Shown piece after piece: positions 24,000 to 25,832 of a stretch of 64,000 nt of DNA. Numbering within the stretch: the first letter of the stretch is position 1; every line of letters begins with the position of its first letter. The position numbers are program-made. The stretch is from Octopus sinensis (taxonomy: Eukaryota): positions 94,736,001 through 94,800,000 of the forward strand of contig NC_043006.1 in NCBI RefSeq assembly GCF_006345805.1. Direction: 5' to 3'.

Positions 24000-24046
<47 letters not shown>

Positions 24047-25759
24047 TCCGTAATGAAGGATGAAATGAATAATTTGGAATAATTATCAATTACACCAAGT
24101 AGTCCTCGGCATGTAAAAGCCTCATTCGAGGAAAATTTAAGTAATACTAAGCAATAAAGGGTTTAGCAACGAATTGCCTTACCACATACCGAATTTAGAA
24201 ATAGCAGTCAAAGAGTTATAGCTATTTCTTTACTAAAAAGGGAGATCTCAGTAAAAACAGCAATTGGAAGGCAGACAAAACAGGTAAGAGAGAATGAATT
24301 GACGGCAATATATCATACAATTTTAAGTTATCTACGGACGTACGTTTCGAAATCAAGTTTTTAGGAAGCATAAGAATTAAATATTAAATAATTCTATCTT
24401 ACCAAAAACTTCTTTTCTCTTCAGCGTAGAATACTATAATCATAAATGATATATATTGAATTTTGAGATACTAGAAGGCACCAACTCACTCAGTATCAGA
24501 GCGAGCTAGAATCCGCAACTAGTATCACCAAATTCAATGCGTGAATGAAAAGATTGTGTCACCAGCCCCTTCCCACACGCGTGTAGCCAAAACAAGATGC
24601 TGTGGTCATCTACTGAGATAAAATATGGTTATCCGTAATAATGAAGGGTGAAATTAATTAATTTGGAATAATTATCAATTACACCAAGTAGTCCTCGGCA
24701 TGTAAAAGCCTCATTCGAGGAAAATTTAAGTAATACTAAGCAATAAAGGTGACACAATCTTTTCATTCACGCATTGAATTTGGTGATACTAGTTGCGGAT
24801 TCTAGCTCGCTCTGATATGATTGAGTTTGGTGCCTTTATGTATCTCAAAATTCAATATATAATCATTTATGATTATAGTATTCTACGCTGAAGAGAAAAG
24901 AAGTTTTTGGTAAGATAGAATTATTTAATATTTAATTCTTATGCTTTCCTAAAAACTTGATTTCGAAACGTACGTCCGTAGATAACTTAAAATTGTATGA
25001 TAGATTGCCGTCAATCATTCTCTCTTACCTGTTTGTGTCTGCCTTCCAATTGCTGTTTTTACTGAGATCTCCCTTTTTAGTAGAAGAAGTAGCTATAACT
25101 CTTTGACTGCTATTTCTAAATTCGGTATGTGGTAAGGCAATTCGTTGCTAAACCCTTTATTGCTTAGTATTACTTAAATTTTCCTCGAATGAGGCTTTTA
25201 CATGCCGAGGACTACTTGGTGTAATTGATAATTATTCCAAATTAATTAATTTCACCCTTCATTATTACGGATAACCATATTTTATCTCAGTAGATGACCA
25301 CAGCATCTTGTTTTGGCTACACGCGGGTGGGAAGGGGCTGGTGACACAATCTTTTCATTCACGCATTGAATTTGGTGATACTAGTTGCGGATTCTAGCTC
25401 GCTCTGATACTGAGTTGAGTTGGTGCCTTCTAGTATTTCAAAATTCAATATATAATCATTTATGATTATAGTATTCTACGCTGAAGAGAAAAGAAGTTTT
25501 TGGTAAGATAGAATTATTTAATATTTAATTCTTATACTTTCCTAAAACTTGTTATTTCGAAACGTACGTCCGTAGATAACTTAAAATTGTATGATAGATT
25601 GCCGTCAATTCATTCTCTCTTACCTGTTTGTGTCTGCCTTCCAATTGCTGTTTTTACTGAGATCTCCTTTTTAGTAGAAGAAATAGCTATAACTCTTTGA
25701 CTGCTATTTCTAATTCGGTATGTGGTAAGGCAATTCGTTGCTAAACCCTTTATTGCTTA

Positions 25760-25832
<73 letters not shown>

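What the first reader, a model, noticed from the sequence alone, without database searches (positions are those of the whole stretch)
24043..25761. Retrozyme-like tandem ~594-nt monomers, one intact hammerhead each: candidate circular RNA replicon
Seen: two same-strand hammerheads have predicted cuts after 24976 and 25570, 594 nt apart, in head-to-tail near-identical ORF-less repeats. A third copy lies in an opposed block. The same monomer junction (..ttacggataac|catattttatctcag..) is present in both the + and - blocks, so it pre-existed in the template. Known: retrozymes are non-autonomous retroelements whose tandem hammerheads release monomers that circularise; described animal non-LTR retrozyme monomers are generally shorter. 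Inference: double cleavage would free a ~594-nt RNA that can circularise and be reverse-transcribed around the circle by a PLE RT. That would explain the >1-unit, circularly permuted inserts. High copy identity suggests a recent event.
Basis: partly seen in the sequence, partly recalled or inferred. Interest (0 to 1): 0.9.

Follow-up and report, generated by a model that had tools for sequence, protein, structure and literature searches.

The report
Hammerhead retrozyme insertion, Penelope-style layout
This is a small non-coding mobile element that carries a self-cutting hammerhead RNA motif in each repeat unit; it belongs to a known kind (animal retrozymes), and its inverted-plus-tandem layout in a TA repeat matches how Penelope-like retroelements insert.

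Summary
Window 24043-25761 is 2.9 units of a ~592-595-nt ORF-less repeat. A 1.19-unit block on the minus strand (24043-24749) abuts a 1.71-unit head-to-tail block on the plus strand (24748-25761), and (TA)n lies on both sides. Each unit has a complete type-I hammerhead core, with cuts after 24976 and 25570 (+) and 24337 (-). My descriptor found 6 hammerheads in the window and none in 200 simulated windows. Rfam calls none of them; I infer this is because helix II is a ~70-nt hairpin.

The 721-nt dimer transcript folds, unconstrained, into the classical double hammerhead through the palindrome ACGUACGU. The excised 594-nt RNA is strongly structured (z -6.6) and keeps the ribozyme fold.

The best reading is a non-LTR retrozyme, a non-autonomous element that depends on Penelope-like elements (PLEs). 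It sits in the published PLE insertion layout: partial tandem, adjacent inverted copy, (TA)n target.

- Unit length is within the published range (51-972 bp).
- The "junction" argument does not separate a circular template from a multimeric one.
- Nothing supports an RNA replicon.
- Copies are 96-97.5% identical, so the event is not very recent.

It is a new member of a known kind. Genome-wide copies, reads and RNA could not be checked.

The parts
23911..23998 (.). Left copy of a flanking direct repeat: (TA)13, then CACGCGTATATACAGC, (CT)n, (CA)n, ATACA
   Evidence: family D6 (81 nt, 86% ungapped). The local alignment pairs 23911-23998 with 25802-25890. The 16-mer occurs only twice in the window, with 0.04 expected by chance. 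It is either a long target-site duplication or an older local duplication.
24001..24042 (.). (TA)21 microsatellite abutting the left end of the insert
   Evidence: TRF, 21 copies, 100% matches.
24043..24749 (-). Inverted block of 707 nt (1.19 units). It is the reverse complement of M407-592 + M1-525. Its outer end is M525 and its inner end is M407.
24331..24430 (-). Hammerhead of the inverted block. C3 is at 24424 and the cut is after C17 at 24337. Helix I is UCUACG/CGUAGA and helix II is 69 nt.
24748..25761 (+). Direct head-to-tail block of 1014 nt (1.71 units): M1-592 + M1-422. It shares a 2-nt GG overlap with the inverted block at 24748-24749.
   Evidence: families D4, D7-D11, spacing 592-595.
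24882..24982 (+). Hammerhead 1: helix I 6 bp, CUGAAGA (C3 at 24888), helix II 70 nt, CGAAA, helix III segment ACGUACGU, cut after C24976
   Evidence: In the dimer fold its helix III pairs with that of hammerhead 2.
25475..25576 (+). Hammerhead 2: same architecture, C3 at 25481, helix II 71 nt, cut after C25570
24977..25570 (+). The 594-nt RNA that double self-cleavage would release
   Evidence: The linear fold is -164.8 kcal/mol with z = -6.58 against 100 dinucleotide shuffles. The circular fold is -157.9 kcal/mol, 66% paired, and keeps helix I, helix II and an unpaired core.
25761..25828 (.). (TA)34 microsatellite abutting the right end of the insert
   Evidence: 34.5 copies, 97% matches.
25802..25890 (.). 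Right copy of the flanking direct repeat

Best explanation
The locus is one compound insertion of a non-autonomous, hammerhead-bearing retroelement of the animal non-LTR retrozyme kind. These elements are thought to depend on Penelope-like elements (PLEs). It landed in a (TA)n microsatellite.

Shown here:
- 2.9 units of an ORF-less ~594-nt repeat.
- A complete type-I hammerhead in each unit.
- The palindromic helix III (ACGUACGU) lets the two plus-strand ribozymes fold as a double hammerhead in a dimer transcript.
- The excised 594-nt RNA is unusually well folded.

Inferred from the family's published biology: transcription through the plus block gives an RNA that cuts itself after C24976 and C25570. 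The 594-nt product carries a 5'-OH and a 2',3'-cyclic phosphate, and a host tRNA-type ligase circularises it.

Inferred from the geometry, together with published PLE biochemistry: the insertion arose when a PLE endonuclease/reverse transcriptase nicked both strands of the AT-rich target and extended both. The bottom-strand cDNA started near M422 and ran 1.7 units. The top-strand cDNA started near M525 and ran 1.2 units. The two were joined head to head at a 2-nt microhomology.

The template was more than one unit long. It was either a multimeric transcript of about 3.0 units (1792 nt, with 67 nt lost at the junction) or a circle. This locus cannot tell which.
For: Repeat anatomy.

Hammerheads:
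- 3 of 3 units carry CUGAAGA, GAAA, A15.1-U16.1, C17 and a 6-bp helix I.
- The strict descriptor gave 6 hits in the window, and 0 of 200 simulated windows had any.
- The 116-nt segment folds on its own into helix I plus a long helix II with the core unpaired.
- The unconstrained minimum-energy fold of the 721-nt dimer transcript pairs 24968-24975 with 25562-25569 and swaps the helix I strands. That is the classical double hammerhead. Enforcing this pairing costs 0.0 kcal/mol.
- A short helix III with a small palindromic loop, acting as a dimer, is the published canonical metazoan type-I design (PMC4209133 text).

Monomer RNA: z = -6.58. The circular fold keeps the ribozyme-competent shape, as published for most metazoan retrozyme circles (PMC7229834 Discussion).

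No ORF.

Insertion layout:
- The purified PLE protein cleaves and extends both top and bottom strands at AT-rich DNA (PMC11167929).
- The orientation of the ends fits priming from both flanks. The outer ends are the 3'-most template positions on both sides.

Other evidence:
- Retrozymes co-occur with PLEs, and in Xenopus frogs are related to PLE pseudo-LTRs (bioRxiv 10.64898/2026.07.22.740005).
- Independent support in the same window: three other hammerhead families with no sequence similarity to this one have (TA)n tracts beside or near them. Two of the three are head-to-head palindromes.
Against: - Rfam calls no hammerhead at gathering score. It calls none at E<=10 either (for this locus; for the compact motif pair at 63492-63616).
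- No self-cleavage, RNA or circle was observed. All of that is inferred.
- No PLE reverse transcriptase lies in the window. The only RT hit among the 10 ORF translations I scanned (of 50 ORFs >=120 aa) reads like a LINE fragment. That judgement rests on its motifs as I recall them, not on a test.
- No second copy of this family lies in the window. Mobility, true termini and preferred start sites are therefore untested.
- The two outer ends (M422, M525) lie 103 nt apart. The two published PLE start sites are 30-40 nt apart.
- Differences between units are clumped. There are none in M1-69 or M372-496. Ma and P1 differ at 1 of 186 positions. By contrast, 25 to 31 columns vary across the three-copy stretch M1-424, all at M70-371. 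This is not what uniform decay of identical units predicts.
- About half of the differences are 1-nt indels (16 of 31 columns), which may be assembly error.
- The flanking 88-nt repeat is only 86% identical and is separated from the insert by extra (TA)21. It may not be a target-site duplication.
Confidence: 0.7

Rival explanations
1. It is a remnant of an autonomous Penelope-like element rather than a separate retrozyme family. On this view the 594-nt unit is a pseudo-LTR or an internally deleted PLE, copied as a partial tandem, and its hammerhead is the ordinary pLTR hammerhead.
For: PLE pLTRs carry type-I hammerheads, and most dispersed motifs are thought to be truncated PLEs. Pairs on opposite strands 100-700 bp apart were noted in Schistosoma (PMC4209133). 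Retrozymes are sister to pLTRs in Xenopus. The layout here is the PLE layout.
Against: The repeated unit is 594 nt and has no ORF remnant. A PLE partial tandem repeats the whole 3-4 kb element. No PLE RT or GIY-YIG match was found among the 10 ORFs scanned. The published PLE hammerheads are 'minimal', lacking helix III. This one has the canonical palindromic helix III. The line between this rival and the main reading is largely one of definition.
Confidence: 0.13
2. It is a DNA-level rearrangement. A short piece of hammerhead satellite was duplicated and partly inverted by replication template switching or fold-back repair at the fragile (TA)n tracts, with no reverse transcription at this site.
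For: (TA)n tracts are very dense: 88 perfect runs of >=8 units in 64 kb. They can form cruciforms. The junction has only 2 nt of microhomology. The flanks carry an 88-nt direct repeat, which may itself reflect local duplication. Tandem expansion of retrozyme units by unequal crossover is discussed in print. The inner 262 nt of the inverted block is reported as 100% complementary to 25154-25415 (I1).
Against: The inverted block extends to M525, beyond the end of the direct block at M422. It is therefore not a simple fold-back copy of what is present now. Head-to-head layouts recur in two of the three other, unrelated hammerhead families in the window. That points to a mechanism tied to the elements rather than to this site.
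Confidence: 0.1
3. It is an assembly artefact: a chimeric or fold-back long read, or a mis-joined collapsed repeat, created the opposed block.
For: PLE-type structures are known to trouble assemblies (PMC8557442 passage). Half of the inter-copy differences are 1-nt indels, a typical long-read error. The window contains a 100-N scaffold gap at 35662-35761.
Against: The arms differ by 2.5-3.7%, including substitutions, and their ends are not mirror images. The structure is bounded by unique flanking sequence on both sides. Similar layouts occur at two other loci in the window.
Confidence: 0.06
4. The hammerhead-like motifs are chance matches in AT-rich repeat DNA, and the repeat is an ordinary minisatellite.
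For: Rfam gives no hammerhead hit. Helix III is only 2 bp as a monomer. Helix II is imperfect.
Against: None of 200 simulated windows had a hit under the strict descriptor, against 6 observed in three unrelated families. The dimer fold yields the double hammerhead without constraints. All invariant core positions are present in 3 of 3 units.
Confidence: 0.01

Closest known systems
Animal non-LTR retrozymes (Cervera & de la Pena 2020, PMC7229834; Li, Clavereau & Pollet 2026 preprint, 10.64898/2026.07.22.740005)
   Same: - Short ORF-less head-to-tail repeats with one type-I hammerhead per unit.
- No LTR, primer-binding-site or polypurine-tract features.
- GC below 50%.
- A highly self-paired monomer RNA in which the ribozyme stays free to fold.
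- A weak palindromic helix III that implies dimeric cleavage.
- Unit length within the published 51-972 bp.
   Different: - Helix II is a ~70-nt imperfect hairpin rather than about 4 bp, so the usual loop 1 / loop 2 contacts cannot form as drawn for canonical motifs.
- There are only 1.7 + 1.2 units, with an opposed copy. The texts I read do not describe such a layout for retrozymes.
- No RNA data exist for this element.
Penelope-like elements and their compound insertions (Craig et al. 2021, PMC8557442; Frangieh et al. 2024, PMC11167929)
   Same: - A partial tandem with an adjacent inverted copy.
- A (TA)n / AT-rich target.
- Hammerheads in the repeated part.
- Ends that fit cDNA synthesis primed from both DNA strands.
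   Different: - No RT/endonuclease ORF, and a unit of 0.6 kb rather than 3-4 kb.
- The two presumed start sites are 103 nt apart rather than 30-40 nt.
- No recognisable 30-40-bp 'tail' could be defined from a single copy.
Newt satellite 2 / Schistosoma Sm-alpha type canonical metazoan hammerheads acting as double hammerheads (as summarised in PMC4209133; Forster et al. 1988 is cited there, and I did not read it)
   Same: - Type-I topology with a 6-bp helix I.
- A 2-bp helix III capped by a 4-nt palindromic loop.
- Predicted activity as a dimer in tandem transcripts.
   Different: Long helix II. The genomic setting is a small dispersed-type insertion rather than a long satellite array.
L1 5'-inversions by twin priming (recalled from general knowledge, not read here)
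   Same: An inverted 5' segment joined to a direct 3' segment at microhomology. Both outer ends are the 3'-most template positions. A small loss (67 nt) occurs at the junction if the template was one multimeric RNA.
   Different: A different enzyme family is presumed. The template is a repeat, so the two cDNAs need not come from one linear molecule.

Membership tests
Hammerhead ribozyme, type I | Conserved core: C3 U4 G5 A6 N7 G8 A9, G12 A13 A14, the A15.1-U16.1 pair, and H17 at the cleavage site | tested here: met
   CUGAAGA, GAAA, an A..U closing pair and C17 are present in 3 of 3 units.
Hammerhead ribozyme, type I | Three helices around the core, with the open end at helix I | tested here: met
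   Helix I is 6 bp (UCUACG/CGUAGA). Helix II is a 69-71-nt hairpin (-14.6 to -17.7 kcal/mol). Helix III is 2 bp plus a 4-nt loop, or 8 bp in the dimer.
Hammerhead ribozyme, type I | Match to the curated covariance models (Rfam hammerhead families) | tested here: not met
   No hammerhead hit at gathering score or at E<=10. The likely cause is the ~70-nt helix II; that is my inference and was not tested.
Hammerhead ribozyme, type I | Self-cleavage at the predicted phosphodiester | not testable with these tools
   Needs in vitro transcription of 24870-25590 and end mapping.
Animal non-LTR retrozyme | Head-to-tail repeats, each with a type-I hammerhead, so that two cuts free a unit-length RNA | tested here: met
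   Cuts after 24976 and 25570 lie 594 nt apart on one strand.
Animal non-LTR retrozyme | Non-coding, with no LTR, PBS or PPT | tested here: met
   No ORF >=120 aa stop-to-stop, and the longest internal ATG ORF is 49 aa. No terminal direct repeats exist other than the units themselves. PBS and PPT motifs were not searched for specifically.
Animal non-LTR retrozyme | Expressed as linear and circular unit-length RNA | not testable with these tools
   No transcriptome was available.
Animal non-LTR retrozyme | Multi-copy and dispersed in the genome (a mobile family) | not testable with these tools
   Only the 64-kb window is held, and it has no second locus of this family. No eukaryotic genome collection was open.
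Animal non-LTR retrozyme | Stable, highly self-paired monomer RNA | tested here: met
   z = -6.58. The circular fold is 66% paired, with z = -5.5 against 60 mononucleotide shuffles.
Penelope-like element (autonomous) | A single ORF with a telomerase-like RT and a GIY-YIG endonuclease | tested here: not met
   No ORF in the locus. Among 10 of the 50 long ORFs of the window scanned against Pfam, only one RVT_1 hit appeared, at 29277-29846, and it looks LINE-like.
PLE-type insertion architecture | A partial tandem, with an inverted truncated copy adjacent at the 5' end | tested here: met
   A 1.71-unit direct block is preceded by a 1.19-unit inverted block. The definition comes from PMC8557442.
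PLE-type insertion architecture | Insertion into AT-rich or (TA)n target DNA | tested here: met
   (TA)21 and (TA)34 abut the two ends. Run ends make up about 0.3% of window positions (88 runs).
PLE-type insertion architecture | A 30-40-bp 'tail' extension at one end | tested here: inconclusive
   A single copy gives no family consensus against which to define a tail. The outer ends differ by 103 nt in monomer coordinates.
Viroid-like / RNA-replicating circular RNA | Ribozymes or other processing signals in both polarities, and RNA-to-RNA replication | tested here: not met
   The antisense polarity of the unit has no hammerhead, and Rfam finds no other ribozyme family at E<=10. Replication itself cannot be tested here.

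The most novel reading that the evidence does not exclude
This genome carries a lineage of type-I hammerheads whose helix II has grown into a 50-71-nt hairpin. It occurs in three of four otherwise unrelated non-autonomous families within 64 kb, and Rfam detects none of them. The long hairpin would be the handle that a PLE protein binds, both to start reverse transcription and to assist cleavage. Locus 24043-25761 would then be a preserved product of PLE two-strand priming on a retrozyme RNA longer than one unit. That would be the first structural footprint tying retrozyme mobilisation to the PLE machinery rather than to sequence relatedness alone.
Probability: 0.15. Interest if true: 0.55.

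Novelty: new member of a known kind. Interest (0 to 1): 0.35.

Why it matters
Retrozymes are a route to abundant circular RNA in animals, and how they move is still inferred. The published link to Penelope-like elements rests on co-occurrence, shared hammerheads and, in frogs, sequence relatedness to pLTRs. A retrozyme copy whose insertion has the PLE hallmarks adds a mechanistic footprint that can be tested genome-wide. Those hallmarks are an inverted copy beside a partial tandem, a (TA)n target, and ends that fit priming from both strands.

The long helix II also has a practical consequence. Rfam found none of the hammerhead motifs that my descriptors found in this window (8 in four families, counting the compact pair that only the relaxed descriptor found). 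Model-based censuses may therefore undercount such elements in genomes like this one. None of this changes the known picture; it extends it.

Tried and rejected
- Rfam at gathering score on the whole window gave 0 matches. Rfam at E<=10 on 23900-25900 gave 23 matches, all microsatellite or hairpin look-alikes (miRNA and pestivirus UTR models), none a ribozyme. On 63380-63720 it gave 29 matches, again none a hammerhead. I treat these as model failures, not as evidence of absence. I report them because they count against the ribozyme call.
- Looked for a PLE reverse transcriptase in the window. I scanned 10 of the 50 ORFs of >=120 aa against Pfam and 1 of the 10 hit RVT_1. Its translation reads like a 5'-truncated LINE. 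That judgement rests on recalled motifs, not on a test. The other 40 ORFs were not scanned.
- Looked for more copies of the 594-nt unit in the window: none.
- Looked for similarity between the four hammerhead families: nothing beyond very short matches.
- Simple snap-back (hairpin-primed) copying of the direct block was considered and rejected. The inverted block runs to M525 while the direct block stops at M422. It would need a later deletion.
- A fold-back that included the flank was rejected, because the left flank repeat is in direct, not inverted, orientation.
- Reading the 88-nt flank repeat as a clean target-site duplication was not accepted. It is 86% identical against 96-97.5% for the units, and it is separated from the insert by AG(TA)21.
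- Relaxed descriptor: 11 hits against a mean of 0.58 (maximum 5) in 100 simulated windows. I regard the hits at 7554-7725 and 63148-62997 as likely chance matches and did not follow them up.
- Literature: four searches. I found no text describing retrozymes with an adjacent inverted copy, and none describing hammerheads with a helix II of tens of base pairs. 'Long helix II' in print meant 6-8 bp. This is only as good as those searches and the passages read. Supplementary figures and tables of PMC4209133, PMC7229834 and the 2026 preprint list many motif families.
- Not checked because closed or unsuitable: the search for homologous proteins, the search of protein representatives, and the viral and metagenome contig collections (all closed). 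Genome contigs holds only bacteria and archaea and was not used. No eukaryotic genome, read set or transcriptome was available. Copy number, end-point distribution, organism identity, read support and expression are therefore all unchecked. Structure prediction, complex prediction and the protein atlas were not used, because the locus encodes no protein.
- The N run at 35662-35761 was left as it is.
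Full report
1. WHAT IS THERE

The stretch 24043-25761 lies between two pure (TA)n tracts, (TA)21 at 24001-24042 and (TA)34 at 25761-25828. Self-BLAST and an alignment in register resolve it into two blocks of one repeat unit, M, of 592-595 nt. 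I set M1 arbitrarily at 24748.
- The plus block, 24748-25761, is M1-592 followed by M1-422 (1014 nt, 1.71 units).
- The minus block, 24043-24749, is the reverse complement of M407-592 followed by M1-525 (707 nt, 1.19 units).
- The blocks meet head to head and share two bases (GG) at 24748-24749.
- Pairwise identities are 96.3-97.5%.
- No other copy of the unit lies in the 64 kb.
- The locus has no stop-to-stop ORF of 120 aa or more. Its longest internal ATG ORFs are 49 and 45 aa.

2. THE HAMMERHEADS

Each unit reads UCUACG-CUGAAGA-[69-71-nt hairpin]-C-GAAA-C-GUAC-G-U-C|CGUAGA. This supplies every invariant hammerhead position: C3-A9, G12-A14, the A15.1-U16.1 pair and C17. It also supplies a 6-bp helix I, a long imperfect helix II (-14.6 to -17.7 kcal/mol on its own) and a 2-bp helix III with a 4-nt loop. 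The cuts fall after 24976 and 25570 on the plus strand, 594 nt apart, and after 24337 on the minus strand.

Is it more than chance? I wrote a descriptor requiring helix I >=5 bp, CUGANGA, helix II >=3 uninterrupted bp, GAAA, helix III >=2 bp closed by A-U, and H17.
- It found 6 motifs in the window.
- It found none in 200 simulated windows of the same first-order composition.
- The three motifs of this locus are copies of one another. The other three belong to two unrelated families, so there are at least three independent occurrences.

Against this, Rfam reports no hammerhead. It found none at gathering score and none among the 23 matches at E<=10 across the locus. I attribute this to the ~70-nt helix II. 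That is an inference, not a test.

Folding supports the ribozyme reading.
- The isolated 116-nt segment folds into helix I plus helix II with the core unpaired.
- The helix III segment ACGUACGU is an exact 8-nt palindrome.
- The unconstrained minimum-energy fold of the 721-nt dimer transcript (24870-25590) pairs the two palindromes with each other (24968-24975 with 25562-25569). It also swaps the helix I strands between the two ribozymes.
- That is the double hammerhead. Enforcing it costs 0.0 kcal/mol.
- A short helix III capped by a small palindromic loop, active as a dimer in tandem transcripts, is how Cervera and de la Pena describe the canonical metazoan type-I motif (PMC4209133, first part of the text).

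3. THE RNA THAT WOULD BE RELEASED

The cut-to-cut 594-nt RNA folds at -164.8 kcal/mol, with z = -6.58 against 100 dinucleotide shuffles. As a circle it folds at -157.9 kcal/mol and is 66% paired. Helix I, helix II and an unpaired core are retained, with z = -5.5 against 60 mononucleotide shuffles. Metazoan retrozyme circles are described as highly self-paired, with the hammerhead usually free to adopt its active fold (PMC7229834 Discussion; PMC7761336 passages). The antisense polarity of the unit has no hammerhead, and Rfam finds no other ribozyme family there.

4. HOW THE LAYOUT AROSE

Both outer ends are the 3'-most template positions.
- On the right, the bottom strand continues from the (TA)n flank into the complement of M422 and runs back through 1.7 units to M1.
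- On the left, the top strand continues from (TA)n into the complement of M525 and runs back through 1.2 units to M407.

This is the geometry expected if the 3'-OH ends of both nicked target strands primed reverse transcription of plus-sense RNA and the two cDNAs were then joined.

It matches published Penelope-like element (PLE) biology on three points.
- (TA)n is a preferred target of Naiad PLEs, and a microsatellite bias was earlier proposed for Neptune PLEs. Target-site duplications are often impossible to discern for that reason (PMC8557442 passages).
[quoted passage not shown] It prefers AT-rich DNA and starts reverse transcription at internal RNA sites (PMC11167929 main text).

Retrozymes are proposed to be mobilised by PLEs. 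In Xenopus they are related to PLE pLTRs (bioRxiv 10.64898/2026.07.22.740005, Results and Discussion).

If one linear RNA was the template, it ran from M407 to M422 three units later: 186+525+67+592+422 = 1792 nt. That leaves 67 nt (M526-592) lost at the inversion junction. A circle copied by rolling reverse transcription fits equally well.

The string is real and occurs exactly twice, at 25265-25290 (+) and 24613-24638 (-). But it is ordinary internal unit sequence. It shows only that each block exceeds one unit, which both kinds of template explain. In vitro, unprocessed multimeric RNA was the dominant PLE substrate, and hammerhead mutants did not affect insertion.

5. POINTS THAT DO NOT FIT NEATLY

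(a) The two presumed start sites, M422 and M525, lie 103 nt apart. The published pair of PLE start sites is 30-40 nt apart.

(b) The inner end of the inverted block (M407) lies only 15 nt from the outer end of the direct block (M422). I cannot say whether this is chance (roughly 5%) or marks a preferred RNA end.

(c) The flanks carry a direct repeat, 23911-23998 against 25802-25890. Its 16-mer core occurs only twice in the window, against 0.04 expected.
- It is only 86% identical.
- On the left it is separated from the insert by AG(TA)21.
- It is either a long, decayed target-site duplication with extra (TA)n at both insert ends, or an older local duplication into whose middle (TA)n tract the element inserted. 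I lean to the second.

(d) Differences between units are clumped.
- Depending on the alignment, 25 to 31 columns vary among the three copies over M1-424, and all of them lie at M70-371.
- None vary in M1-69 or M372-496.
- Only 1 of 186 positions differs between the inner part of the minus block and M407-592 of the plus block.
- Sixteen of the 31 variable columns are 1-nt indels.
- This could reflect heterogeneous template units, gene conversion near the palindrome centre, or assembly error. It argues mildly against identical units copied from one circle and then decaying evenly.

(e) At 2.5-3.7% divergence, the event is not especially recent.

6. CONTEXT IN THE WINDOW

The same 64 kb holds three further hammerhead-bearing short elements with no detectable similarity to this one or to each other.
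- Family B, 36740-37290, is a palindrome (36892-37286, 87%). It has hammerheads cutting after 37218 (+) and 36960 (-), a helix II of 55-63 nt and a helix III segment ACAUGUGU. (TA)n lies on or near both sides. An internally deleted relative at 2700-2870 shares both termini and also sits between (TA)n tracts.
- Family C, about 9620-10150 on the minus strand, has one hammerhead: CUGAGGA, a 50-nt helix II, ACAAUUGU, and a cut after 9752.
- Family D, 63396-63713, is a 99% palindrome with a compact motif on each arm: helix II 5 bp, ACAAUUGU, but only a 4-bp helix I. Only the relaxed descriptor found it, and Rfam did not call it.

All four families have 8-nt palindromic helix III segments. Two of the three extra families are head-to-head pairs. 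Perfect (TA)n runs of at least 8 units number 88 in the window, so a run end is about 0.3% of positions. Element ends meeting them on both sides is therefore not chance. The recurrence supports a mechanism tied to the elements rather than an accident or artefact at one site.

No PLE ORF was found. Of the 10 ORFs scanned (out of 50 of >=120 aa), one hit RVT_1, at 29277-29846 (2.6e-11). It reads like a truncated LINE.

7. COMPARISON WITH WHAT IS KNOWN, AND NOVELTY

The element meets the testable defining features of animal non-LTR retrozymes: tandem type-I hammerheads, no coding capacity, and a structured unit RNA. Expression, circularity and genome-wide mobility could not be tested.
- Its unit length is ordinary. 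The published range is 51-972 bp, and the 2020 paper speaks of 150 to >1000 nt.
- The circle-template idea for more-than-unit copies is already in print (PMC4209133 Discussion passage).
- What I did not find in the texts and passages I read, or in four searches, is a retrozyme described with the PLE-type inverted neighbour, or a hammerhead whose helix II is a hairpin of tens of base pairs. 'Long' helix II in print meant 6-8 bp.

I file it as a new member of a known kind, with a possible variant feature in the long helix II.

8. VERDICT

I put 0.7 on the main explanation. The remainder is split among 'PLE remnant' (0.13), DNA-level rearrangement (0.10), assembly artefact (0.06) and chance (0.01). 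Interest is 0.35. It is a neat, well-preserved example that could anchor a genome-wide test of how retrozymes move, but it is not a new kind of system.

Noticed in passing
window 36740-37290: A second hammerhead family (B). It is a palindrome (36892-37286, 87% identity) with hammerheads cutting after 37218 (+) and 36960 (-). Helix II is 55-63 nt, the helix III segment is ACAUGUGU, and the cleavage triplet is GUA. The plus copy has an 8-nt duplication (GAAACAUU) in front of helix III. (TA)n lies beside or near both ends.
   Followed up: partly
window 2700-2870: An internally deleted relative of family B (about 80% identity to both termini of B). It lacks the 5' half of the hammerhead and also sits between two (TA)n tracts. 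It shows that family B has defined termini, so B's internal palindrome may be part of the element rather than a double insertion.
   Followed up: partly
window 9560-10200 (minus strand): A third family (C) with a single hammerhead: CUGAGGA, a 50-nt helix II, ACAAUUGU, and a cut after 9752. It is bounded by a 26-nt direct repeat (about 84% identity over 9560-9621 vs 10093-10152) and by (TA)n. A small inverted-repeat element is nested at about 9995-10227.
   Followed up: partly
window 63396-63713: A fourth family (D): a 99% palindrome centred near 63555 with a compact hammerhead-like motif on each arm (C3 at 63582 and at 63526). Helix II is 5 bp, the helix III segment is ACAAUUGU, the triplet is GUA, and helix I is only 4 bp. 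Only the relaxed descriptor found it, and Rfam does not call it. A 74-76% related stretch lies at 30426-30539.
   Followed up: partly
window 29277-30320 (+): A reverse-transcriptase fragment (Pfam RVT_1, E 2.6e-11) interrupted by a stop at 29847-29849. It appears 5'-truncated and begins next to a (TA)n run at 29302-29321. It reads like a LINE rather than a PLE; that is a judgement from its motifs, not a test.
   Followed up: partly
whole window: Extreme density of (TA)n: 88 perfect runs of at least 8 units (2318 of 64000 bases). GC is 34.6%. Many repeats in the window begin or end at such runs.
   Followed up: partly
window 23092-23319 and 23647-23937: Two short inverted-repeat (MITE-like) elements lie just upstream of the locus. 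The second sits between (TA)n tracts.
   Followed up: no
window 24749 vs 25761 (monomer positions M407 and M422): The inner end of the inverted block and the outer end of the direct block fall within 15 nt of each other in unit coordinates. This may mark a preferred RNA end or start site, or it may be chance.
   Followed up: no
window 24043-25761: Differences between units are clumped at M70-371 and M497-516. There are none in M1-69 or M372-496. About half are 1-nt indels, which may be assembly errors.
   Followed up: partly
window 35662-35761: A run of 100 N (assembly gap or masked). It was left untouched.
   Followed up: no
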